DNA from: a virus
Lineage: Duplodnaviria; Heunggongvirae; Uroviricota; Caudoviricetes
Virus record (IMG/VR): IMGVR_UViG_2684622580_000006
Reading direction: 5' to 3' (one strand)
Length of the DNA: 34,867 bases
The position numbers and the translations under genes were made by a program. This document shows, one piece after another, positions 1,746 to 34,510 of the stretch. Below the pieces are notes generated by a model. It was not told where the DNA came from, searched no databases, and saw nothing but the letters and a program-made list of their open reading frames with translations. Each line of letters opens with the position of its first letter. Positions within the stretch are counted from its first letter, which is position 1.

Positions 1746-1790
1746 AATTGATACTCTCTGCTAAGTGATTGAAAGGATTAGATTATGCAA
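1715..1790. other. Candidate attL / host-prophage junction overlapping the 5' end of ybiT
   Basis: Abrupt GC-rich to AT-rich transition around 1720-1745; only 39 bp separate the ybiT start from the serine recombinase start; small palindrome ttgctaagaagcaa (1731-1744) and a second tgctaag at 1760-1766. Confidence 0.3.
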
Positions 1791-3290
1791 AAGCAAAACG
1801 GGTTAGCTTACTCATACATACGATTTTCGAGCAAGAAACAAGAACAAGGGGACTCAGTAAGACGACAGACTGAACTTGCTGAAAAATACGCTTCATCGAA
1901 CAATCTTACACTATCTGAAAAGAACTTTCAGGATCTGGGGATCTCAGCGTTCAAAGAAGGAAACAGACCTTCACTCGGTGACATGCTTTCTGCTATCGAG
2001 CAAGGAGCAATCGAATCAGGCAGCACGATAATCATCGAATCACTTGATCGCTTGAGTCGTCGGGGTATCGATGTGACTCAACAGATAATCAAGTCAATCT
2101 TACAACACAACGTCTTTATAGCGAGCCTGACAGACGGTCTGTTACTCAATAGAGAATCAGTTAACGACCTTGTAAGCGTGATTAGAATCGCTCTGGCTGC
2201 TGACCTTGCGCATAAAGAATCGGAGAAGAAATCACAGCGTTTGCGTGAGACAAAACAGCAACAAAGAAAAGCTGCTCTTGAGGGTAAAGTAATCAACAAA
2301 ATACTGCCTTTCTGGTTATCAAGAGAAAAAGACCAGTTTGTTTTCTCTGACAGATTTGACGCAGTGAAAAGAATTATCGAACTAAAGAAAAAGGGACTTG
2401 GGACAAATAAAATAGCTAAGACATTAAACGATGAAGGATTTAAACCATTGCGTTCTGCTGGCTGGAATCATACAACTGTTGGTAAAACTCTAAGTTCAGT
2501 TGCTTTATACGGTGCTTATCAAACATCAGAAACGACGAAAGATAGAAAAGTTATTCTGTTGGATATTATCGATAATTATTATCCAGCAGTAATTAGCAAA
2601 GAAGATTGGATGTTATTACAATCAGACGCAAAGCAGAATAAACCGGGGTATAAGTCAGACAAAAATGCTTTCACAGGGTTATTAAAGCACTCTTGCGGAG
2701 GTGCGTTAGTCAGAAAATTCCATGTTGTTACTGGTAAAACGTATCAATACCATGTTTGTGCTAATGCTCGCGATGGTAAATGCACCGTTACGCAGAATTT
2801 TAAAAACATGGAGATTGCTCTTTATAAAATCTTAAAGCACTTAAAGATGGAGAAGAAAACCTCTGTTGATGCGACAATTGCACAAGAACGCGCTCAATTA
2901 AAAGAGCAAATCGACAACTTGAACGGAATGCTTCTAACAATGAAAAAAGTTCCTATGAGTGTTCTTGAGACAATCGGCAATCTTGAGGAAAAGTTACAGG
3001 AACTCGACCAGCAGTTTAAACAACAATCTGATATGGTATTAGCTGAACAATCAGTCGATTTCAACCTCCTGTCGGAAATCAAAGATCCTATCGAATTAAA
3101 CATGATGCTTAAACGAGTTATAAAAGAAATCACGGTATTTAATCTTAAAAAATCTTGGCGAATAAAAGTTCAGTATCTGAATGGTCATTCTCAGAGTTTC
3201 CGATGGGATGGATATAGTATGAGTTTTGTTTCTGACAGCAAAAAACTACTGGAATACATGAACGCTGAGAAAGAGCAATTGGATAACTAA
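1785..3290 (+). CDS. Large serine recombinase (phage integrase, serine type)
   Basis: N-terminal resolvase-like catalytic domain with the serine motif AYSYIRFSSKKQ...RQ; Cys cluster HSCGG...YHVCANARDGKC (zinc ribbon) and C-terminal coiled coil typical of large serine integrases; sits at the element boundary. Confidence 0.85.
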   Translation: MQKQNGLAYSYIRFSSKKQEQGDSVRRQTELAEKYASSNNLTLSEKNFQDLGISAFKEGNRPSLGDMLSAIEQGAIESGSTIIIESLDRLSRRGIDVTQQIIKSILQHNVFIASLTDGLLLNRESVNDLVSVIRIALAADLAHKESEKKSQRLRETKQQQRKAALEGKVINKILPFWLSREKDQFVFSDRFDAVKRIIELKKKGLGTNKIAKTLNDEGFKPLRSAGWNHTTVGKTLSSVALYGAYQTSETTKDRKVILLDIIDNYYPAVISKEDWMLLQSDAKQNKPGYKSDKNAFTGLLKHSCGGALVRKFHVVTGKTYQYHVCANARDGKCTVTQNFKNMEIALYKILKHLKMEKKTSVDATIAQERAQLKEQIDNLNGMLLTMKKVPMSVLETIGNLEEKLQELDQQFKQQSDMVLAEQSVDFNLLSEIKDPIELNMMLKRVIKEITVFNLKKSWRIKVQYLNGHSQSFRWDGYSMSFVSDSKKLLEYMNAEKEQLDN

Positions 3291-4197: not shown

Positions 4198-4220
4198 AGG
4201 GAGTTGTTGCTCCCTTATTT
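4198..4220. terminator. Bidirectional intrinsic terminator between convergent genes
   Basis: agggag-ttgttg-ctccct hairpin followed by tatttt; lies between the stop at 4186 (+) and the stop at 4215 (-). Confidence 0.5.
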
Positions 4221-4862
4221 TACGCTCGTCCACTTAGATTCTGAGTTCCATTTACCGATTCGAGAAAAAAACGTATCTTGTTCATTTCCTTTATAACTAC
4301 GATGAACACCATCAGAAGCGTGATTTCTTGCCGATTTCTCAAGAACCTCCCAGATTGAGTTCATAACAGCTTCGGTTTCGTTTTTAGATTCATTATCATC
4401 GTATTCGATATTAACTGTTAATTTATCCATAGAACCAGTAAACAGATTAAAACTCTCTGTTAGACTGCCAGTATTCGGATTCAGAAAACAAATATCAATT
4501 TTAACGTCTGCTCTGTTCAAAGCTTTTGTTCGAATCAAGTTAATATATTCTTTTCGGATATTAGCCAGCTTAACGGTCATACCGATGTTGCTAATTTCTT
4601 TTTCTTCGCTGATTGAACTGATATCAGTAAAGTCACCAGCGGCAATATAATTTTTACCTTGATATTGCAAGTCGTAATAAGCATCAGTTAACAACAGTTC
4701 TGCGCCGTTATGCATCTTAATCTGAACAAGATGAAACAACGTGCCAACACTGAACAACTGACCAGTAGTCAGTTCAGTATAAGCAGTGCCGTTAAAATCG
4801 TTATACGCTTCGATGAAGTCGGGGTCTTTTCTCAGTCTGTTAAATTGGTCTTTTACTGACAT
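4215..4862 (-). CDS. Hypothetical protein (second gene of a minus-strand pair)
   Basis: 215 aa ORF; start overlaps the upstream gene stop by 1 nt (translational coupling); no motif I recognise. Confidence 0.6.
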   Translation of the reverse strand: MSVKDQFNRLRKDPDFIEAYNDFNGTAYTELTTGQLFSVGTLFHLVQIKMHNGAELLLTDAYYDLQYQGKNYIAAGDFTDISSISEEKEISNIGMTVKLANIRKEYINLIRTKALNRADVKIDICFLNPNTGSLTESFNLFTGSMDKLTVNIEYDDNESKNETEAVMNSIWEVLEKSARNHASDGVHRSYKGNEQDTFFSRIGKWNSESKWTSVK

Positions 4863-5437
4863 TACACCACCTCTGTTGCAGTGAGTTTAATATTTGAAAT
4901 TGATGCTAAGTCTAACGGGATAGTATCGTTCGTTAGGATGAATCGTCCTTTTGTTCCTCTGTAACTGACAGTTTCACCAGCTTGAACGTTCTGCAACAGA
5001 TTCGGAAATAGTTTCATCTCTCCACCTGCTTTGACATCCTCCGTCACGGTGTACAGCTTGGAGTGATTCTGAAACTGAACAAGTGCTCCCGCTTCTAAAG
5101 TATCTGCAAAGCTGTTCAGAGTGACCTTACGCGCTCCTTTGTTAGCTGTAACAGATGCTTGGATAAGTCCCTGAGCCGAGCCTTTATAGTCAGTCAAGTA
5201 GCTTAACGGAAAGTCAAACGGTTGACCTTGTTGATGCATCGCGATAAAGCGTTGAACGTGTCTTGTGTCCTGCGACATATAATTCACAGTGAAATTCAAT
5301 TCGAAATATTGAACGCCTGTATAACGTTTCTGAAAACGTCCTGATACTGCTCTGTTAGAGAAAAACGGAGCATTTGATTTAAGCTGAACATCGGTCAGCC
5401 TAACGTCTGTGTCTAATAGATTCATAAGTCCTCTCAT
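4862..5437 (-). CDS. Hypothetical protein (first gene of a minus-strand pair; start may be the internal Met at 5425)
   Basis: 191 aa ORF; AGAGGA precedes the ATG of MNLLDTD at 5425, whereas the ATG at 5437 has no SD. Confidence 0.6.
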   Translation of the reverse strand: MRGLMNLLDTDVRLTDVQLKSNAPFFSNRAVSGRFQKRYTGVQYFELNFTVNYMSQDTRHVQRFIAMHQQGQPFDFPLSYLTDYKGSAQGLIQASVTANKGARKVTLNSFADTLEAGALVQFQNHSKLYTVTEDVKAGGEMKLFPNLLQNVQAGETVSYRGTKGRFILTNDTIPLDLASISNIKLTATEVV

Positions 5438-18053: not shown

Positions 18054-20030
18054 ATGCTAAAACTAAAACGCGATTTCGAAGCCCAAGAAATTAAAATTAC
18101 TGATGATAGTTATGAAATTGCGTTCTCAAGTGAAACTCCTGTTGAACGTCAAATTCTCGATAGTTACGGTCAACCAATAACAGTTAATGAAATTCTTTTG
18201 CATGACGGTCCTCAAAATGCTGACCTCGAGCGAATCAATAACGGCGCTGCTCTGTTGTTTAACCATAATTTCGACAATCATCTAGGCGTTGTAATTCCCG
18301 GGTCTGTAAGAATCGATAATGACCGTAAAGGTCGCGCTGTTGTTAAATTCAGTAAAGTTGGTCAATTAGCTAACGAAATTAAATCAAAAATCGACGAAGG
18401 AACAATTTCTAAAATTTCTTTCGGCTACGACATTATTGAATATGAACTCAAAGGAGACGACTTGTTAGTTTCTCGTTGGAGTCCGTATGAAATTTCTTTC
18501 GTTACTGTTCCTGCTGACGACAAAGTTGGCTTGGGAAGACTTCTAAATACAGATGACAAAACAATTAACGTTGAAGGAAAAAGAATGAATTTTGGTGAAA
18601 TCACTCTCGAAGAACTTCAAACACTTTCTCGCGAACAACTTGCGGAAATGAATGTTGAAGAAATTGAAGCGATGCCAGAAGAACTTCGTTTGAAGCGTGA
18701 AGAACTATTAGCGGAAGAAGCTGATATTCAGGATATCAAAGAAGAAGTTCAAGAAGCATCCGAAGAACAGACTGTTCCAGAAAAACAGGAACAAGAAGTA
18801 CAGAAAACCGAAGCTGAAATTGAGGCTGAAAAAGCTGCTGAAATGGAAGCGCTAAATAAAGAAAAAGAACGAGTTGAAGAAATCGAAGATATTTCGGTTC
18901 GATACAAAGTTCCTTACGAAAAAACGAAATCTGCTATTGAAGACAAAATGTCTGTTTCTGATTTCAAACGCTCTATTAAACCTAATAACGCTCCTACGGT
19001 GGTAAGAAAAATGACTAAAGATACTCAAATTGAACTTGAAAACAAATTTAATCTGGCTAACGCAATGCGCGCAATTGCTGACGGTAAAGCACTGACTGGT
19101 GCAGAAGCTGAATATACTCAAGAAATGATTTCTAAACGTCAGAAAGCTGGTCGCGGTATCGTTTCTAACGGTCTGTATCTGCCTCTGTCAGTTCTGAAAG
19201 GCAAACGCGCTATTAACACTGTCCCGACTGTTTCCGCGATTCAGCAAGTTGAACAGCGTTATGACAGCTTTGTTGAAATGCTGCTTGCTCCGACTGTTCT
19301 AGGTCGTATGGGTGTTAACTTCCTGACTGGTCTGAATACTCCGATTTCTGTGCCTAAGCAAACTGCTAGTTCTGTTGATGCTTTCGGTTTCGTTGATGAA
19401 AACGGTGCTTCTCCAGAAGGCGAAAGCAAATTTGCTAACGTTCAGTTCATGCCGAAAACATTTACTGGTGGTAACCCGATTTCTCGTCAAGCGATGCTGA
19501 CTATGCCGAATCTTGAACAGTTTATTTCTGATCATATCGTTAAGCACTCACGCGCTAAACTGGAAGCTCTGATTCTGGGTTCTGCAACTGACGCTAAAGC
19601 TCCTGAATCTCTGGACGCTCAATTGACCGCTACTTCTATGGGCATGACCTATAAAGAATTCGTTAAAGCTGCTGCTAAAGCGAAAGGTAAAGGCGTTGAC
19701 ATGGACAAGTTCATGTATCTGATGGATGCCGAAACTGAAGGTGATCTGAAAACCACTCTGCGTGACGCTGGTGTTGCAGGTTACATCGTAGGTGAAGACA
19801 ACAAACTGGGTGGACACGAAGTTGTTGGTTCCGGTCTGGTTAAAGATGGCACTATCTTTGCTGGTGATTTCTCTGCTCTGACTGTTGCTGAGTGGGAAGG
19901 TATCGGTATTGATATCGACGACACAACTTATCGTAACGCAGGCGCTATCGTTCCTCGTGTTTGGGCTGACATCGACTGGAAAGTTACTGCTGACGACCGT
20001 CTGTTTAAATACGTAAAAACGGGAGCTTAA
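18054..20030 (+). CDS. Fused prohead protease - scaffold (coiled coil) - HK97-fold major capsid protein
   Basis: N-terminus carries U35/HK97-protease-like motifs (NHNFDNHLG; ISFGYD; YEISFVTVPAD); a central acidic coiled coil (about residues 190-290); the C-terminal 350 aa look like an HK97-type capsid protein. Confidence 0.75.
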   Translation: MLKLKRDFEAQEIKITDDSYEIAFSSETPVERQILDSYGQPITVNEILLHDGPQNADLERINNGAALLFNHNFDNHLGVVIPGSVRIDNDRKGRAVVKFSKVGQLANEIKSKIDEGTISKISFGYDIIEYELKGDDLLVSRWSPYEISFVTVPADDKVGLGRLLNTDDKTINVEGKRMNFGEITLEELQTLSREQLAEMNVEEIEAMPEELRLKREELLAEEADIQDIKEEVQEASEEQTVPEKQEQEVQKTEAEIEAEKAAEMEALNKEKERVEEIEDISVRYKVPYEKTKSAIEDKMSVSDFKRSIKPNNAPTVVRKMTKDTQIELENKFNLANAMRAIADGKALTGAEAEYTQEMISKRQKAGRGIVSNGLYLPLSVLKGKRAINTVPTVSAIQQVEQRYDSFVEMLLAPTVLGRMGVNFLTGLNTPISVPKQTASSVDAFGFVDENGASPEGESKFANVQFMPKTFTGGNPISRQAMLTMPNLEQFISDHIVKHSRAKLEALILGSATDAKAPESLDAQLTATSMGMTYKEFVKAAAKAKGKGVDMDKFMYLMDAETEGDLKTTLRDAGVAGYIVGEDNKLGGHEVVGSGLVKDGTIFAGDFSALTVAEWEGIGIDIDDTTYRNAGAIVPRVWADIDWKVTADDRLFKYVKTGA

Positions 20031-24790: not shown

Positions 24791-25270
24791 ATGGCAGACA
24801 AATTTGATATTTTTGCTGGCTCTTACGTCAGTGTGTTCTATAACTCAGAAATCACAAACACTGATATTAATTCAGAAAAGTTTGTTGAAATTCCTGAAAC
24901 TGGTGCATTCCCTTCTACGGGTATTGAGCGAGAAGTTATTACAGCTCCTAACTTCTCTCACAAATATTCCCGTAAACTGGTTGGTCGTGGCTCTGTTCCT
25001 GATATCGACTTGACTGTTAACTATATTCCAGAAAGCGTTCATGATGTTCTGATTAAGCTTGCGGAAGATGGCAAACGTGGTCAGTTCAAAATCGTTTATT
25101 GGGTCGATGCTTCTAAAGATCTGGGTGTTGCAAAAGTCTATAACGGCTTCTTGTCAAGCGCTGTTCACAATGGTGGAGAATCAGAAGTTTCTGGTCTGAC
25201 TCTGACTCTTTCTGTTGACGGTGGTCCAGTTGCTTCAGGCGTTATCGATACAACTACTCCTACTCCGTAA
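24791..25270 (+). CDS. Putative major tail (tube) protein
   Basis: 159 aa, beta-rich, size and pattern of siphovirus tube proteins; preceded by the late motif and followed by a strong terminator. Confidence 0.5.
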   Translation: MADKFDIFAGSYVSVFYNSEITNTDINSEKFVEIPETGAFPSTGIEREVITAPNFSHKYSRKLVGRGSVPDIDLTVNYIPESVHDVLIKLAEDGKRGQFKIVYWVDASKDLGVAKVYNGFLSSAVHNGGESEVSGLTLTLSVDGGPVASGVIDTTTPTP

Positions 25271-25286
25271 TATCGAAGTTGAACGA

Positions 25287-25311
25287 AGGACTCCTTGTGA
25301 GTCCTTTTTTT
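25287..25311 (+). terminator. Intrinsic terminator after the tail-tube-like gene
   Basis: aggactc-cttgt-gagtcct followed by ttttttt; same AGGACTC stem family as the terminator at 20102. Confidence 0.6.
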
Positions 25312-25315
25312 GGCT

Positions 25316-25325
25316 CTAAATAAAG
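25316..25325 (+). promoter_or_regulatory. Late-promoter-like motif CTAAATAAAG
   Basis: Exact 10-mer also at 29449 and 30938; 13 nt upstream of the ATG at 25339. Confidence 0.4.
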
Positions 25326-25338
25326 TCAGAGGTGAAAC

Positions 25339-25755
25339 ATGTTTAAATTTCAAGCTGACTTATCAAAATTACTGAATCGATATATCAACAAAGAACATCA
25401 ATTCGGTCAAAACGACTGTAATATCCTTGTTGCTGAATATATCGACCTTGTTTGTGTTACTGAATACACAGACAAATTAAAAGACAAATATACGAGTATT
25501 CCTGAAGGTCTCAAGATTTGCAAAAAACTCACTGGTTTTAACAACGTTCTCGAAGCTTGTGAAAATCATCTTGAGAAATCAGAAAAGATAGAAACTGGCT
25601 CGGTTATCTTAATTAAGAAAAAACATAAAAACCGTGTCTATTACGTTGCGTCCATCGTTTTCAATAATCAAGCATTAGTTGAACACGAAAACAAATACAA
25701 ACTAGTGAACGTCAACGATTTTAACTTTGAATTAATTTTTAACAGGAGAAAATAA
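25339..25755 (+). CDS. Hypothetical protein (138 aa), translationally coupled to the gpJ-like gene
   Basis: Stop overlaps the next ATG (TAATG). Confidence 0.55.
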
Positions 25756-30403: not shown

Positions 30404-30945
30404 TGGCAAAAGCAAAAGATGTTATGAAAGACCTTGAAAAATGGCGAATCAAAGAATCTGACGTGTTCAGTAAGAAAGTAACCAAAGCGTCTAAACTCGC
30501 TTCTGTTGAGTTGCAAAGAAAAATCAATAGACGTGTTGACGGACCAGTTAATTTCACTAAGAACGCAGTAGGTTTCAGTTTCAGATACGATCAGAACGGG
30601 TCACGAAATAGAATATTCATCAAAGACAAGCAGGCTGATTATCTTGCTCCGTTGATTGATGATAACAAAGGAATTAACAAGTTTGTTCCAACTGGCGTAA
30701 GAGGTTCAAAGAACAAATTCGGTAACATTCCTAACTTGAAATCAAGAAATAATCTTGAAGCTGTCAAACAGAAAAAAGATGGCGTAACTCGAACGATCCT
30801 CATTAAAACTAACGTTAAAAAGCAAGACCGTCGTTTAATTGCTGTGTTCAAGAAAAATCAACATAGAAGAAAAACTCTGGGTTCATGGAATCAAATCTCT
30901 GACGATTTTTTCAAAACCGTTAAGCGTGTTGCGGGCACTAAATAA
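30403..30945 (+). CDS. Basic hypothetical protein (180 aa)
   Basis: Lys/Arg-rich; coupled to the preceding ORF. Confidence 0.55.
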   Translation: MAKAKDVMKDLEKWRIKESDVFSKKVTKASKLASVELQRKINRRVDGPVNFTKNAVGFSFRYDQNGSRNRIFIKDKQADYLAPLIDDNKGINKFVPTGVRGSKNKFGNIPNLKSRNNLEAVKQKKDGVTRTILIKTNVKKQDRRLIAVFKKNQHRRKTLGSWNQISDDFFKTVKRVAGTK

Positions 30946-30947
30946 AG
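30938..30947 (+). promoter_or_regulatory. Late-promoter-like motif CTAAATAAAG
   Basis: Exact 10-mer overlapping the stop of the upstream gene; 16 nt before the ATG at 30963. Confidence 0.4.
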
Positions 30948-30962
30948 TCAAAAGGAGAACAA

Positions 30963-31280
30963 ATGAACATTCACGATTTTGATACTTACAGATTAGACGA
31001 ACTTGCCGACATCTACGTTAACGAGATTAATCCCGAGTCAATGACTGTTCCTTACGGTTGCGAACACATCAAAGATAAGCGCATTAAAAAATATCTGTTC
31101 AACGATAAAAACGTTTTTATTGTTTCAACACAAAAGAAAAAACCTAATTGTCATTTCAAATTAGGACAGACAGTTCGACTGCAAGGTCCATTTTTTGAGA
31201 CCGAAGCGAAGAACTTAGGAATGATTGAATATATCCACAAAGGTTTCAGAATGTACGGATATTTCTTTCAATGGAAATAA
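30963..31280 (+). CDS. Hypothetical protein (105 aa)
   Basis: AAGGAG SD; followed by an imperfect hairpin plus T-tract at 31286-31307. Confidence 0.55.
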   Translation: MNIHDFDTYRLDELADIYVNEINPESMTVPYGCEHIKDKRIKKYLFNDKNVFIVSTQKKKPNCHFKLGQTVRLQGPFFETEAKNLGMIEYIHKGFRMYGYFFQWK

Positions 31281-31307
31281 CAAAAGGAAGCCTCGCGCTC
31301 CCTTTTT

Positions 31308-31319
31308 CATAAATAAAAG
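31308..31319 (+). promoter_or_regulatory. Late-promoter-like motif CATAAATAAAAG
   Basis: Variant of the CTAAATAAA motif, 25 nt upstream of the ATG at 31344. Confidence 0.35.
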
Positions 31320-31343
31320 AAAACTCAACAAAGGGAAACAAAA

Positions 31344-31652
31344 ATGAATTTCGATGAAATGTTAGCATCATTATCACCAAAACGCGAAGCTGTTGAAATC
31401 AACGGTTATAAATTCTATGCACGTCCGATGACTGTATCCGAGTTTGGTGAATTCTATTTCAAAAATGAAAACACAGAAGAACGTAATGACCGAATGATTC
31501 TGAATTGTATTCAGCACGAAGACGGAACAAGCGTTTTTAAAGAAATCTCTCAAGTTCAGAAACTTTATACAACTGTTCGTTCGCAACTCGCAAGCGCTGT
31601 TTCAAACGCTAGTATTCTGACTAAGGATTCAGACATTCTGGAAAAGAACTAA
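31344..31652 (+). CDS. Tail assembly chaperone (lambda gpG-like)
   Basis: 102 aa ORF immediately upstream of the tape measure gene; the next ORF overlaps in the -1 frame. Confidence 0.6.
   Translation: MNFDEMLASLSPKREAVEINGYKFYARPMTVSEFGEFYFKNENTEERNDRMILNCIQHEDGTSVFKEISQVQKLYTTVRSQLASAVSNASILTKDSDILEKN
31640..31646 (+). other. Candidate -1 programmed frameshift site G_GAA_AAG (G to GT fusion)
   Basis: In the chaperone frame ...CTG GAA AAG AAC TAA; the -1 frame is open from 31625 and continues into the 31688 ORF, which has no SD of its own; the Lys tRNA can re-pair on AAA. Confidence 0.45.
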
Positions 31653-31687
31653 GACAGAACTGGGCAAAATCATTTCAGTATCGAACA

Positions 31688-32050
31688 ATGTTACGTCGCG
31701 GATTATCTAACGAAGAAATTCAACAGATGTCCGTAATGATGTATTATGAATTATGGTTTTTCGATTCGTTTATTGAACCACAAAGTCCTGTCTATAACGA
31801 TTTCTATCAAGCTCGATTGATTCACACTATCGAAGCAAATAACCCGAATCTGACCAAAGAGTACAGGAAAAAGTTGAACATGAAAGACCATCAGCTTATT
31901 AAAGATTCTGTGTTTAAGTCTCAAGAAGAAATCGAAAAAGAGAAAGAACAACAGGAGATTAAACGTAAGAAAGCTATTGAATCGATGTTCGACCCAGCTC
32001 TGTTAGATAAAGTTAAACTGAGAAAAACAAAAAAGGTGAATAATGGCTAA
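31688..32050 (+). CDS. Tail assembly chaperone C-terminal extension (gpT-like), probably expressed as a G-T fusion
   Basis: 120 aa ORF in the -1 frame relative to the chaperone ORF; no ribosome-binding site upstream of its ATG; overlaps the tape measure start by 8 nt. Confidence 0.5.
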   Translation: MLRRGLSNEEIQQMSVMMYYELWFFDSFIEPQSPVYNDFYQARLIHTIEANNPNLTKEYRKKLNMKDHQLIKDSVFKSQEEIEKEKEQQEIKRKKAIESMFDPALLDKVKLRKTKKVNNG

Positions 32051-34442
32051 ATCACGTTATGACGTTGAGATTAACGGAGATAACAAAGGCCTTTCAAAAT
32101 CTATTGATAAGTCTATGGAGCAACTGAACGAACTTGATTCGGTTGCTAATGGACTTTTTAGTAATATGACAGGACCGTTGAATAATCTCAACAGTGGAAT
32201 ATCAGGTATTGCAGGAATGTCCTCGGGTATGCAAGCTCTGGGGATTGCAGGAATGGCAGCAGGTGTAGGTGTCGCCGCTCTTAATACCGCTTTAGAAAAA
32301 ACAAGAGAACTTAATCAGATCTCTACGTCAACTGGACTTTCAGTTGAATATCTGCAACAGCTTCAAAAAGAATTTCGCACTACAGGAATGGAAATTGACC
32401 GATTCGGGGATCTTAACAAAGATACTCTCGACCATCTCGGTGATTCATTCAGAGAAGGCGCAGGTGGTATTGGTGATGACCTTGAAAAATGGGGTATTGG
32501 TCTTGAGCGATACACTCAATATGTTAACGACGCTGAAGGCGGTATTAAAGCACTTGTTCAGACGTATTATGACCTGAAAAAAGCTGGTGCAAGTCAAGCT
32601 GAAATCGTTAACGGAATGGAGTCTATGGCTTCTGACGGTTCTCACTTGATTACTGTTCTTGAAAAATACGGCTCAACTCAAGAAGCATTAAACGCTATCA
32701 ATAACCAATCAGCTAGTATTACAAACGAAACAGCAAGAGAATACCAAGGATTCGATGAAAACATGAAAACGCTTTCGGTGAACTTGGATAATTTAACTGT
32801 TAACGTTATGGGTCCTCTCGTTTCGAAAATGAATAATCTTTATGATATTGCGAATAAAGATTGGACAGCTAGTAATATCCTCGATTTCTTTACTAAGATT
32901 GATAGCTTACGTCCTGATAAGATGTTAGCAGATTGGGCGGCTGACACAGTTGTTGATGCTTACGCAGACGCTAATCCTACTTCTGGCGCAGGTCAACGTA
33001 AACAGCAAAAAGATTATCTTGATACGACAGAACGTTTTCTGAAACAGACCAAAGCTCAAGGCGATAAAGCTTATGAAAAACGTAAGCAAGACGAAATAAC
33101 ACGAGCGAAGTTACAGAAACAGCGTAATGAGAAAGCCGCTGAGGATGCGAAAAAAGAAGCTGATAAAGCTAAACGCGAAGCTGACAGAATAGCAAGAGAG
33201 CAAGAACGCGCTGGGAAAGAAAAGCTACGCTTACAGGAGCAAGCCGCAAGAGAATCTAAAGCTGCTTACGATAAGATGATGCAAGAAAGGGAGACAGCGT
33301 TACAGAGTCTTTCCAGTCTTGATGCTGCAATTCTGAGTCAAGAAGGTCGCACGATTTCAAATCAGGTTAGTCAAGTTCAACAGGCTATTAAAACTATCTC
33401 AGAACTTGAGAAAAAAGGAATTATCTCCGCTGAACAGGCTAAGCAACGTCGAAACATGCTGTTTAAAACATCTAATGCAGAATTTAAACAGACTCTTATG
33501 ACGAGTCCTGAAGAAATTGGAGCAATCACGACAAGTCTTGAAGTTGTATATCAGCAACAGCTTGAACAACTCGAAGCGAAGAAAGCCCAGTCGTTAATCA
33601 GTCAGCAAGAATACAACACACAGGTTGAAGCATTACAGCAAGACCATCAGTCACGTCTTGAAGCTATTAAAGCAACGAGCGGTGACGGTAATATGGCTAA
33701 TATGAAAAATCTCAGTGCGTTGGGTTTTGCAACTGACGAAGAACAGATGGCTATTCAACAAGCCGCGTTAGATGAACAATTTCAGAAAATGCGTGAACAG
33801 AACCAGAAATTATATGATGGTCAGTTAATCAATCACGAGCAATTCCTGCAACAGAAAGCACGTCTTGACCAAGCGTATGCCGCGAAGTCGAAACAAATTA
33901 CTTTCTTGGAAACTCAGACGAAACTCCAGATGTATAACGGGTTGGCTTCTGGTATGGGTTCAATAATCGCTGGTATCGCAGGTGAAAGTTCGGACGCTGC
34001 TCAAGCTGTATTTGCTATTCAGAAAGGAACAGCAATCGCAAGCGGTATGTTAAACGCTTATGAATCCGCGACTGCTGCAATGGCTAAATATCCTGGTCCT
34101 ATGGGTTACGCTATGGCTGCTTCAAGCTATGCGCGTGTTATCGGACAAGTCTTGCAGATGAAATCAGTGAATATTACTGGTATGGCTCACGATGGTATTT
34201 CAGAAGTGCCAAGAGAAGGGACATGGTTGCTTGATGGTGGCGAACGTGTTGTTGATGAACGCACTAACGGCGACTTAAAAGAATTCTTAGACAATAACAA
34301 AATAGGAGAAGCAACAAAAATCGATGCAAGTATTCACGTAAATGGAAATGTTACTGATCAGCGTTGGTTTGCTGAACAATTAAAACGTCAGCAACAGAAC
34401 ATCGCGGCTATTGTGCAAGACTGCAACAGACGCAAGATGTAA
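32043..34442 (+). CDS. Tail tape measure protein
   Basis: 799 aa, alpha-helical; Gly/Ala-rich hydrophobic segments (GIAGMSSGMQALGIAGMAAGVGVAAL; GLASGMGSIIAGIAG); long charged coiled coil (KAAEDAKKEADKAKREADRIAREQERAGKEK); follows the G/GT pair. Confidence 0.75.
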   Translation: MAKSRYDVEINGDNKGLSKSIDKSMEQLNELDSVANGLFSNMTGPLNNLNSGISGIAGMSSGMQALGIAGMAAGVGVAALNTALEKTRELNQISTSTGLSVEYLQQLQKEFRTTGMEIDRFGDLNKDTLDHLGDSFREGAGGIGDDLEKWGIGLERYTQYVNDAEGGIKALVQTYYDLKKAGASQAEIVNGMESMASDGSHLITVLEKYGSTQEALNAINNQSASITNETAREYQGFDENMKTLSVNLDNLTVNVMGPLVSKMNNLYDIANKDWTASNILDFFTKIDSLRPDKMLADWAADTVVDAYADANPTSGAGQRKQQKDYLDTTERFLKQTKAQGDKAYEKRKQDEITRAKLQKQRNEKAAEDAKKEADKAKREADRIAREQERAGKEKLRLQEQAARESKAAYDKMMQERETALQSLSSLDAAILSQEGRTISNQVSQVQQAIKTISELEKKGIISAEQAKQRRNMLFKTSNAEFKQTLMTSPEEIGAITTSLEVVYQQQLEQLEAKKAQSLISQQEYNTQVEALQQDHQSRLEAIKATSGDGNMANMKNLSALGFATDEEQMAIQQAALDEQFQKMREQNQKLYDGQLINHEQFLQQKARLDQAYAAKSKQITFLETQTKLQMYNGLASGMGSIIAGIAGESSDAAQAVFAIQKGTAIASGMLNAYESATAAMAKYPGPMGYAMAASSYARVIGQVLQMKSVNITGMAHDGISEVPREGTWLLDGGERVVDERTNGDLKEFLDNNKIGEATKIDASIHVNGNVTDQRWFAEQLKRQQQNIAAIVQDCNRRKM

Positions 34443-34468
34443 GAGTTTTTGCAAGCGATTTACGATAA

Positions 34469-34493
34469 TACGGGGTGAATAAAATCCCCCCGT
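34469..34493. terminator. Stem-loop between the tape measure gene and a convergent minus-strand gene
   Basis: acgggg ... ccccgt stem with an A-rich loop; followed by ttaattg. Confidence 0.3.
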
Positions 34494-34510
34494 TAATTGT
34501 TCTAAAAAAA

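What the first reader, a model, noticed from the sequence alone, without database searches (positions are those of the whole stretch)
31344..32050. Candidate G/GT-type -1 programmed frameshift at a non-canonical heptamer
A 102-aa chaperone-like ORF ends at 31652. A 120-aa ORF in the -1 frame is open from 31625, lacks its own ribosome-binding site and runs up to the tape measure gene, the conserved G-T arrangement. The only plausible slip site in the overlap is G_GAA_AAG (31640-31646), which deviates from the X_XXY_YYZ rule (lambda uses G_GGA_AAG), so slippage would rely on the A-site Lys tRNA alone.
Basis: partly seen in the sequence, partly recalled or inferred. Interest (0 to 1): 0.5.

Follow-up and report, generated by a model that had tools for sequence, protein, structure and literature searches.

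The report
Tail chaperone frameshift at near-canonical site
An E. coli prophage most likely makes its longer tail-assembly chaperone by a -1 ribosomal frameshift at G_GAA_AAG, an ordinary phage mechanism using a slightly weakened slip site that its relatives keep only as the four bases A_AAG.

Summary
A 102-aa ORF (31344-31652) is followed by a -1-frame reading frame open from 31625 to 32050, which overlaps the start of the tape measure gene (32043-34442). The ORF has the tail assembly chaperone (TAC) fold; its best PDB match is the HK97 TAC. The -1 frame has no start codon before 31688, and that ATG has no Shine-Dalgarno sequence.

The window is an E. coli prophage. About 100 related loci in 23 sequence contexts all keep the G/-1-frame/tape-measure layout. 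All have an in-frame A_AAG in the short overlap, inside six different heptamers ([G/A/C]_GAA_AAG, G/A_GTA_AAG, A_AAA_AAG, T_TTA_AAG) at three alignment registers.

Residues conserved in the -1 frame lie upstream of any start codon. Substitutions show -1-frame codon periodicity straight after the slip site. No downstream RNA structure is conserved. A UAAGGA Shine-Dalgarno-like element lies 12 nt upstream in the window but is not conserved across the family. G at heptamer position 1 and a stop codon 0-1 codons after AAG are both enriched.

Verdict: a programmed -1 frameshift of the lambda G/GT type at a near-cognate heptamer, unannotated in RefSeq. It is a new member of a known kind, of modest interest. 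Product and efficiency are untested.

The parts
31344..31652 (+). G-like tail assembly chaperone ORF, 102 aa, frame 0. Its Shine-Dalgarno-like AAGGGA lies at 31331-31336.
   Evidence: ORF. phrog_344 tail assembly chaperone E=3.8e-6. 11 of 12 relatives hit phrog_344 and 9 of 12 hit PF16459. AlphaFold model with pLDDT 79 matches HK97 TAC 2OB9 at TM 0.59. The C-terminal residues 93-102, which carry the slip site, are predicted disordered.
31622..31627 (+). UAAGGA, a Shine-Dalgarno-like element 12 nt 5' of the heptamer and a candidate frameshift stimulator. Its first three bases (31622-31624) are the TAA that closes the -1 frame upstream.
   Evidence: Anti-Shine-Dalgarno duplex energy is -5.8 kcal/mol, as strong as real ribosome-binding sites in this window (median -5.6). 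It is present with the same spacing in L003 and L109 but lost in L004. Family-wide, 7 of 31 upstream contexts score <= -5 kcal/mol against 4% of background windows. The role is inferred, not shown.
31640..31646 (+). Slip site G_GAA_AAG. The proposed event is tRNA-Lys moving from AAG (31644-31646) to AAA (31643-31645), and tRNA-Glu from GAA to GGA.
   Evidence: It is the only A_AAG in the 28-nt overlap. A_AAG is kept in all 23 sequence contexts of the family, inside six different heptamers. AAG is the minor Lys codon, 18% of Lys codons in the window.
31650..31652 (+). Frame-0 stop codon TAA of G, one codon after the slip site.
   Evidence: Across the family the stop lies 0-1 codons after AAG in 17 of 23 contexts, and TAA, TGA and TAG all occur at the same place.
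31646..32050 (+). T-like extension read in the -1 frame, 134 codons plus TAA at 32048-32050. Joined to 31344-31646 it gives a predicted 235-aa G-T fusion with junction ...DSDILEK|ELRQNWAKSFQYR...
   Evidence: Translation. The fusion aligns colinearly with 11 relatives and has invariant residues F111, R114, R118, G120 and L121. The first two of these lie upstream of ATG 31688. Codon-position entropy after the slip runs 3rd > 1st > 2nd in the -1 frame. All three substitutions between 31653 and 31687 in L003 and L004 are synonymous in the -1 frame. PF06223 Phage_tail_T is hit by 5 of 12 relatives.
32043..34442 (+). Tape measure protein gene, 799 aa. Its start overlaps the end of the T frame by 8 nt.
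   Evidence: phrog_13674 tail length tape measure protein, E=2.4e-72. It is 37% identical to the tape measure protein of phage DCP80.

Best explanation
A small fraction of ribosomes translating the chaperone gene (31344-31652) slip back one base on G_GAA_AAG (31640-31646). They then continue in the -1 frame to 32050. The cell therefore makes mostly the 102-aa G-like protein and a minor 235-aa G-T fusion, as phage lambda does with gpG and gpGT.

Proposed mechanism. The core event is E. coli's single, shift-prone tRNA-Lys (anticodon mnm5s2UUU) re-pairing from AAG to AAA. The P-site tRNA-Glu re-pairs from GAA to GGA imperfectly, as G-C, G.U and A-U. No RNA structure is involved. An upstream UAAGGA Shine-Dalgarno-like element and the stop codon one codon downstream may raise the efficiency.

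What is shown: the gene anatomy; the chaperone identity of G; the absence of any independent start for T; purifying selection on the -1 frame from the slip site onward; and family-wide conservation of A_AAG.

For: Anatomy and lack of a start
- The anatomy is as described.
- The -1 frame has no ATG, GTG or TTG between 31625 and 31687, and ATG 31688 has no Shine-Dalgarno sequence (+0.7 against a median of -5.6 kcal/mol).

Identity of the genes
- G is a TAC by profile and by fold.
- The tape measure gene lies directly downstream.

Host
- The window is 100% identical to four complete E. coli chromosomes.
- E. coli has one tRNA-Lys for AAA and AAG, and A_AAG is its most shift-prone tetramer (PMC5009743; PMC4066793).

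Family comparison
- About 100 loci in 23 contexts all keep an in-frame A_AAG in a 16-55 nt overlap. It sits in six heptamer types at three registers of the T alignment. Chance expectation is about 2-7% per overlap.
- In L009, L011, L014 and L109 the first -1-frame start codon lies 11 or more codons downstream of the invariant RxGL motif.
- Codon periodicity in the -1 frame begins at the first codon after the slip.
- All three substitutions between the G stop and ATG 31688 in close relatives are synonymous in the -1 frame.
- Rare codons are used to build the site: AAG is 18% of Lys, GTA 16% of Val, and the G-ending codon before the site is enriched with P about 3e-4.
- Two distant relatives carry fully canonical sites at the same junction: T_TTA_AAG in phage DCP80 and A_AAA_AAG in L024, L040 and L100.
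- T homologues among 1.84 billion representative proteins are all 53-126 aa fragments that start at whichever Met comes first. None has a conserved start of its own.
Against: - There is no experimental evidence of the fusion product.
- The heptamer breaks the X_XXY_YYZ rule.
- In E. coli reporters, Z_ZZN tetramers without a stimulator are barely above background (0.15% against 0.11%). They need a pseudoknot to reach 5.6% (PMC4066793).
- No downstream structure is predicted in the window: the 74 nt after the site fold worse than shuffled sequences, z=+1.5.
- RNAalifold finds no conserved pairs across 17 relatives.
- The Shine-Dalgarno-like element is not conserved across the family.
- The window's own T region does not reach significance against Pfam Phage_tail_T or against lambda gpT (hhalign E=0.019; HMM not significant).
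- The usual position between the major tail gene and the tape measure gene is not kept in this prophage.
Confidence: 0.85

Rival explanations
1. The frameshift is real, but the event differs from tandem or A-site slippage at AAG. One possibility is slippage of a single P-site tRNA while the nearby stop codon sits unread in the A site (a 'shifty stop' or vacant-A-site regime). Another is slippage at G_AAC_TAA one codon later.
For: - A stop lies 0-1 codons after AAG in 17 of 23 contexts. TAA, TGA and TAG are interchangeable at that position.
- The -1-frame Val after the slip Lys uses the minor codons GTA or GTG, which create the frame-0 stop, in 8 of 9 clusters (P about 1e-4, ignoring phylogeny).
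- In group A the stop is maintained through the rare -1-frame codons CTA, ATA and AGR.
- There is a precedent: the pea enation mosaic virus site G_GAU_UUU_UGG_UAG depends on a stop codon 3 nt downstream (PMC5009743).
Against: - In the window the stop is not adjacent to AAG, because AAC intervenes. tRNA-Asn re-pairing from AAC to GAA would be poor.
- The intervening codon varies (AAC, AAA, CCC, CCA, AGC), so no second slippery codon is conserved.
- L022, L091, L024 and DCP80 have the stop 4-12 codons away.
- The contexts are phylogenetically related, so the statistics overstate independence.
Confidence: 0.1
2. The -1-frame ORF is translated on its own from ATG 31688 or a later ATG, as RefSeq annotates it. 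It would then give a free 104-120-aa T protein and no fusion.
For: An ATG exists at 31688. PGAP and other gene callers annotate separate ORFs of 104-120 aa.
Against: - None of the candidate ATGs has a Shine-Dalgarno sequence.
- The invariant residues F111 and R114 are encoded upstream of ATG 31688.
- The Met is not conserved, and in L009, L011, L014 and L109 no start codon precedes the invariant RxGL motif.
- Synonymous-type substitutions and codon periodicity extend from the slip site, not from the ATG.
- Gene callers start T homologues at scattered positions.
Confidence: 0.04
3. The -1-frame ORF is a non-functional relic or a chance open frame, and only G is made.
For: Alternative-frame ORFs longer than 100 aa occur elsewhere in the window. 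The window's T region alone has no significant Pfam hit.
Against: - The frame is conserved as protein down to 30-40% identity in about 19 clusters, with invariant residues and third-position-biased substitution.
- 5 of 12 relatives hit Pfam Phage_tail_T.
- The frame always ends at the tape measure gene start.
Confidence: 0.01

Closest known systems
Phage lambda gpG/gpGT, and the conserved TAC frameshift of long-tailed phages (Levin et al. 1993 and Xu et al. 2004, as cited in PMC5009743)
   Same: Both have two overlapping ORFs directly upstream of the tape measure gene. In both, the second ORF is in the -1 frame and lacks a start of its own. The slip site ends in A_AAG, no RNA structure is required, the host is E. 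coli, and the T frame ends overlapping the tape measure gene start. For lambda, I verified the G_GGA_AAG site and layout in NC_001416.
   Different: - The heptamer is G_GAA_AAG rather than G_GGA_AAG. Position 3 is A, so the P-site tRNA is tRNA-Glu, re-pairing with a G.U pair, rather than tRNA-Gly.
- G is 102 aa against 140 aa in lambda.
- The frame-0 stop is 1 codon after the site, against 5 in lambda.
- Sequence similarity to lambda G and T is not significant.
- In this prophage the cassette is not next to the major tail gene.
HK97 tail assembly chaperone (PDB 2OB9)
   Same: It is the best structural match to the modelled G protein: Foldseek probability 1.00, TM 0.57-0.59 over 100 of 102 residues.
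   Different: Sequence identity is only 15-18%. The comparison uses a predicted model (pLDDT 79), not a solved structure.
A_AAG tetramer and near-cognate heptamer -1 frameshifting in bacteria: IS1222 G_CGA_AAG, B. subtilis cdd A_CGA_AAG, and phage T7 gene 10 with its G_GU-type P-site half (PMC5009743)
   Same: The A-site tRNA-Lys slips from AAG to AAA while the P-site codon cannot re-pair perfectly. The family's two main P-site halves, G_GA and G_GU, are the recognised intermediate types. An upstream Shine-Dalgarno-like element at 12 nt resembles the spacing used by dnaX.
   Different: Those cases are transposase, cytidine deaminase or capsid genes, and several depend on demonstrated stimulators. 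Here the setting is a TAC gene, and no stimulator is conserved across the family.
Pea enation mosaic virus G_GAU_UUU_UGG_UAG (PMC5009743)
   Same: It has a G_GA-type near-canonical heptamer followed by a stop codon one codon downstream. This is the same geometry as G_GAA_AAG_AAC_TAA.
   Different: It is a eukaryotic RNA virus with a different A-site tRNA. The stop-codon dependence was shown there and is only hypothesised here.

Membership tests
Lambda-type G/GT tail assembly chaperone with programmed -1 frameshift | Two overlapping ORFs immediately upstream of the tape measure gene | tested here: met
   G is 31344-31652, the -1 frame is open 31625-32050, and the tape measure gene is 32043-34442 (phrog_13674, E=2e-72).
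Lambda-type G/GT tail assembly chaperone with programmed -1 frameshift | The cassette lies between the major tail protein gene and the tape measure gene | tested here: not met
   In the window, G is preceded by ORFs of 180 and 105 aa. The major-tail-like gene (24791-25270, phrog_158) is 6 kb upstream. The canonical order is kept in the relatives DCP80, L015, L022 and L024.
Lambda-type G/GT tail assembly chaperone with programmed -1 frameshift | The second ORF is in the -1 frame and has no translation start of its own | tested here: met
   There is no start codon at 31625-31687 and no Shine-Dalgarno sequence before ATG 31688. Conserved residues lie upstream of any start in the relatives.
Lambda-type G/GT tail assembly chaperone with programmed -1 frameshift | A canonical X_XXY_YYZ slippery heptamer in the overlap | tested here: not met
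   G_GAA_AAG fails XXX at position 3. The Z_ZZN core A_AAG is present and invariant in the family. Canonical sites occur in the distant relatives DCP80, L024, L040 and L100.
Lambda-type G/GT tail assembly chaperone with programmed -1 frameshift | The first ORF is a tail assembly chaperone by sequence and fold | tested here: met
   phrog_344 E=3.8e-6. 11 of 12 relatives hit phrog_344 and 9 of 12 hit PF16459. The top PDB fold match is HK97 TAC 2OB9.
Lambda-type G/GT tail assembly chaperone with programmed -1 frameshift | The extension is a T domain (Pfam PF06223, Phage_tail_T) | tested here: inconclusive
   5 of 12 relatives hit PF06223, best E=4e-4. The window's own T does not. hhalign against lambda T gives E=0.019 and a colinear alignment. 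An HMM search is not significant.
Lambda-type G/GT tail assembly chaperone with programmed -1 frameshift | G and the G-T fusion are both made, with the fusion in a low fixed ratio, and both are needed for tail assembly | not testable with these tools
   This requires protein analysis or genetics.
A_AAG-based (Z_ZZN tetramer or near-cognate heptamer) -1 frameshifting in bacteria | A Z_ZZN motif in frame 0 that allows cognate A-site re-pairing | tested here: met
   The site is A_AAG at 31643-31646, with AAG as the frame-0 codon.
A_AAG-based (Z_ZZN tetramer or near-cognate heptamer) -1 frameshifting in bacteria | The host decodes AAA and AAG with a single tRNA-Lys (mnm5s2UUU) | tested here: met
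   The host is identified as E. coli, and relatives are in Citrobacter, Klebsiella and Salmonella. The tRNA property is established knowledge taken from PMC5009743 and was not measured here.
A_AAG-based (Z_ZZN tetramer or near-cognate heptamer) -1 frameshifting in bacteria | A stimulator is present: a Shine-Dalgarno-like element about 10-14 nt 5' of the site, or a 3' stem-loop or pseudoknot | tested here: inconclusive
   UAAGGA lies 12 nt upstream in the window (-5.8 kcal/mol). Such elements occur in only 7 of 31 family contexts. No 3' structure is found in the window or conserved in the family. Rfam gives no hit.
dnaX-type high-efficiency frameshift | A_AAA_AAG heptamer with both an upstream Shine-Dalgarno element and a downstream stem-loop | tested here: not met
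   The heptamer differs, and there is no downstream stem-loop.

The most novel reading that the evidence does not exclude
In this family of enterobacterial prophage chaperone genes, the weak slip site (A_AAG with an imperfect P-site half and no RNA structure) may be compensated by a selected frame-0 stop codon placed 0-1 codons after AAG. That would be a 'shifty-stop' form of -1 frameshifting, in which slow termination or a vacant A site lets tRNA-Lys slip. It has not been described for G/GT genes. The family would also provide a natural allelic series, N_GAA_AAG, N_GTA_AAG, A_AAA_AAG and T_TTA_AAG, each with or without an adjacent stop, for dissecting P-site and stop-codon contributions in E. 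coli.
Probability: 0.2. Interest if true: 0.5.

Novelty: new member of a known kind. Interest (0 to 1): 0.3.

Why it matters
The practical consequence is an annotation fix. RefSeq and PGAP call G, a truncated T and the tape measure protein 'hypothetical', and NCBI names many G homologues 'cytochrome'. The 235-aa G-T fusion is missing from every record I looked at.

The family also shows that selection at a G/T junction preserves only A_AAG plus a preference for G at position 1. The site itself moves between three registers and six heptamers. This is a clean natural illustration of which parts of a bacterial slip site matter. Because the host is E. coli, each variant is directly testable with standard reporters.

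It does not change the accepted picture of tail chaperone frameshifting.

Tried and rejected
Searches that found nothing useful
- Megablast of 30900-34500 against phage genomes gave no match.
- tblastn of G against phage genomes gave no match.
- The word-indexed protein search with the fused 235-aa sequence gave no hit. G alone did give hits.
- An HMM of the family against lambda gpG and gpT was not significant.
- A profile search against PDB sequences gave nothing relevant.
- An Rfam scan of 31200-32200 gave only a sub-threshold chance snoRNA match.

Stimulator searches
- I looked for a 3' stimulatory structure in single-sequence folds of the window and eight relatives. None lies next to the site, and the window segment folds worse than shuffled sequence.
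- RNAalifold on 17 relatives predicted zero pairs.
- The hairpin near 31692-31740 is about 45 nt from the site, which is too far, and it is not conserved.

Natural fusions
- I looked for natural in-frame G-T fusions among 1.84 billion representative proteins. There are none, and all T homologues are short fragments.

Mechanisms rejected
- Transcriptional slippage is unlikely. The window has only four consecutive A's and the commonest relatives have three.
- Termination-reinitiation is unlikely. No conserved start codon follows the stop.

Not obtainable
- Xu et al. 2004 could not be read. Whether G_GAA_AAG appears in their table is therefore unknown to me.

Full report
**1. The observation**

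- A 102-aa ORF runs from ATG 31344 to TAA 31650-31652.
- The -1 frame is closed by TAA at 31622-31624 and then open for 141 codons to TAA 32048-32050.
- It ends 8 nt inside the next gene, ATG 32043 to 34442.
- The 28-nt overlap reads ACT AAG GAT TCA GAC ATT CTG GAA AAG AAC TAA in frame 0. G_GAA_AAG (31640-31646) is the only repetitive element in it.
- The statement that the second ORF has no ribosome-binding site holds quantitatively. The best pairing of the 18 nt upstream of ATG 31688 with the 16S rRNA tail is +0.7 kcal/mol, against a median of -5.6 for 25 gene starts in the window.

**2. What the genes are**

- The 799-aa downstream protein is a tape measure protein (phrog_13674, E=2e-72).
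- The 102-aa protein matches tail assembly chaperone (TAC) profiles weakly on its own: phrog_344 E=4e-6, and Pfam Phage_TAC_13 below threshold.
- 11 of 12 diverse relatives hit phrog_344 and 9 of 12 hit Phage_TAC_13.
- An AlphaFold model built on 26 homologues has pLDDT 79. Its top two PDB matches are the two chains of the HK97 tail assembly chaperone 2OB9, at probability 1.00 and TM 0.59 over 100 of 102 residues. The next hits are far weaker.
- The last ten residues, which carry the slip site, are predicted disordered.
- The -1 extension hits Pfam Phage_tail_T in 5 of 12 relatives. It aligns colinearly but weakly with lambda gpT (hhalign E=0.019). That link stays tentative.

**3. Host and relatives**

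- The region is 100% identical to four complete E. coli chromosomes. There it is a prophage end next to ldtB, ybiR and mntR.
- RefSeq annotates G, a truncated 104-aa T and the tape measure protein as hypothetical proteins, with no frameshift.
- Related cassettes came from several sources. These were phage DCP80, IMG/VR and metagenome contigs, one GTDB genome, and contigs carrying G homologues from E. coli, Citrobacter, Klebsiella and Salmonella.
- In total there are about 100 loci: 55 distinct fusion sequences in 17 clusters at 85% identity, plus six further single loci (DCP80, L091, L109-L112). Identity to the window's G-T falls as low as 30%.

**4. Comparative evidence for the frameshift**

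- Every locus has G, a -1-frame extension and the tape measure gene in the same layout.
- Every locus has an in-frame A_AAG inside a short overlap of 16-55 nt. There are 23 distinct sequence contexts.
- The heptamers are G_GAA_AAG (window and others), A_GAA_AAG, C_GAA_AAG, G_GTA_AAG (the commonest), A_GTA_AAG, A_AAA_AAG and T_TTA_AAG. The last two are fully canonical.
- These sites sit at three different registers of the T-domain alignment. The site has therefore been re-created or moved rather than merely inherited.
- By chance, an overlap of this size contains an in-frame A_AAG about 2-7% of the time.
- AAG is the minor Lys codon here, at 18%.
- The fused proteins align without a break across the junction. 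The invariant residues F111, R114, R118, G120 and L121 include two encoded upstream of ATG 31688.
- In L009, L011, L014 and L109 the first -1-frame start codon lies well downstream of the invariant RxGL motif.
- Nucleotide variability after the slip site follows -1-frame codon periodicity from the first codon onward, with third position > first > second in all three alignment groups.
- The three substitutions that L003 and L004 carry between the G stop and ATG 31688 are all synonymous in the -1 frame.
- T homologues among 1.84 billion representative proteins are all short fragments that begin at whichever Met comes first.
- Together these results exclude independent translation of T and exclude a chance ORF.

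**5. Mechanism**

- E. coli has a single tRNA-Lys for AAA and AAG. A_AAG is its most shift-prone tetramer (PMC5009743; PMC4066793).
- Position 1 is nevertheless G in 7 of 10 contexts where a synonymous choice exists, against 1.9 expected from codon usage. This gives P about 3e-4, or 2e-3 after collapsing related contexts.
- With G at position 1, tRNA-Glu can re-pair on GGA as G-C, G.U and A-U. A near-cognate two-tRNA slip is therefore the best reading.
- G_GA and G_GU P-site halves are recognised intermediate motifs, as in T7 gene 10, umbraviruses and insect flaviviruses (PMC5009743).

**6. Stimulators**

- No 3' structure is predicted in the window. The 74 nt after the site fold worse than shuffled sequences, z=+1.5.
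- No structure is conserved in the family, and Rfam gives nothing. Lambda G/T also needs no structure.
- A UAAGGA Shine-Dalgarno-like element (31622-31627, -5.8 kcal/mol) lies 12 nt upstream of the heptamer. This is the spacing range known to stimulate -1 shifts.
- The element recurs in L003 and L109, and in a similar form in L015, but it is lost in L004. Only 7 of 31 family contexts have such an element, against 4% of background windows. It is a candidate stimulator, not a conserved one.
- A frame-0 stop lies 0-1 codons after AAG in 17 of 23 contexts. TAA, TGA and TAG interchange at that position.
- The stop is maintained through minor -1-frame codons: GTA or GTG for Val, and CTA, ATA and AGR.
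- This suggests selection on the position of the stop. It is the basis of the more novel 'shifty stop' reading.
- Against that reading, the window's own stop is one codon removed from AAG. The contexts are also not phylogenetically independent.
- Reporter data warn that bare tetramers, and even bare heptamers, give less than 1% in some E. coli contexts (PMC4066793). Efficiency here may be low, which a G:GT ratio of the lambda kind (about 30:1; PMC5009743) would tolerate.

**7. Comparison with known systems, and novelty**

This works like lambda G/GT and meets most membership features. It fails two. The heptamer is not strictly X_XXY_YYZ. In this prophage the cassette is not adjacent to the major tail gene, although it is adjacent in the relatives DCP80, L015, L022 and L024.

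The slip-site type has precedents in IS1222, B. subtilis cdd, T7 gene 10 and pea enation mosaic virus. I therefore class it as a new member of a known kind. It is unannotated in public records and of modest interest. The family-level allelic series is the most useful by-product.

**8. Limits**

Nothing here shows that the fusion protein exists or measures its abundance. The mechanism beyond 'a -1 shift within 31640-31652' is inference. I could not read Xu et al. 2004 to check whether this heptamer was already tabulated.

Noticed in passing
window 31344-31652 and homologues P0001-P0019: NCBI and UniRef name many homologues of this tail assembly chaperone 'cytochrome', and one E. coli RefSeq hit also carries that label. 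This is almost certainly a propagated misannotation.
   Followed up: partly
window 4215-5437 (- strand), 24791-25755, 31344-34442: The tail module is scrambled. The major-tail-like gene (24791-25270) is followed directly by the w138 ORF and the J-like tip protein. G-T-tape measure sits 6 kb further on, at the prophage's right end. The distal tail protein (4862-5437) and a tail protein (4215-4862) lie on the opposite strand near the left end. DCP80, L015 and L024 keep the canonical order major tail - G - T - tape measure - Dit - tail protein. L012 shows a third arrangement.
   Followed up: partly
window 1785-3290: A 501-aa large serine recombinase (phrog_95 integrase, E=5e-74, with a DNA-invertase-like N-terminus) lies next to the inverted Dit and tail-protein genes. 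I did not examine whether it is only the integrase or also inverts a segment.
   Followed up: no
window 31282-31306; L001 7250-7275: A GC-rich hairpin followed by a T-run sits just upstream of G in the window. A similar hairpin (GGGACCTTCGGGTCCC followed by T6) precedes G in DCP80. It may be a terminator or attenuator that travels with the G-T-tape measure cassette.
   Followed up: no
L001 (PQ671644.1, Escherichia phage DCP80): The record is 141 kb and classified as Straboviridae/Tevenvirinae. It nevertheless contains a siphovirus-type major tail - G - T - tape measure - Dit - J module related to this 35-kb prophage. It may be a chimeric assembly or misclassified.
   Followed up: no
L041 1800-1815: In one G_GTA_AAG variant the stop is TGA. 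The -1 frame then reads GTG directly after the slip Lys, preceded by GAGG. In this single lineage that makes a possible, though very tightly spaced, alternative start. More generally, GAG GTA AAG embeds a GAGGU Shine-Dalgarno-like sequence inside the commonest slip site.
   Followed up: no
L027 (JBEBQJ010000175.1): A contig binned as a Sphingobacterium yanglingense MAG carries a G/T junction identical to those of the prophage loci L012 and L013. Relatives with named hosts are enterobacterial. This is probably a mis-binned contig.
   Followed up: no
window 18054-20030: A 658-aa protein matches both major head protein and head maturation protease families (phrog_617, phrog_4523, phrog_80). It appears to be a fused protease-capsid gene.
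   Followed up: no
window, other genes: In-frame G_GAA_AAG occurs three times among the window's genes, counting the G/T site. There are 42 in-frame A_AAG sites in 9456 codons. I did not examine the other two G_GAA_AAG sites for -1-frame extensions.
   Followed up: no
L050 and L091: L050, from a low-coverage food metagenome, has an in-frame stop inside T (TY*EPQ). This may be a pseudogene or a sequencing error. L091 has lost the adjacent stop (TAA changed to AAA), which extends G by 4 codons and opens the -1 frame for 159 codons.
   Followed up: no
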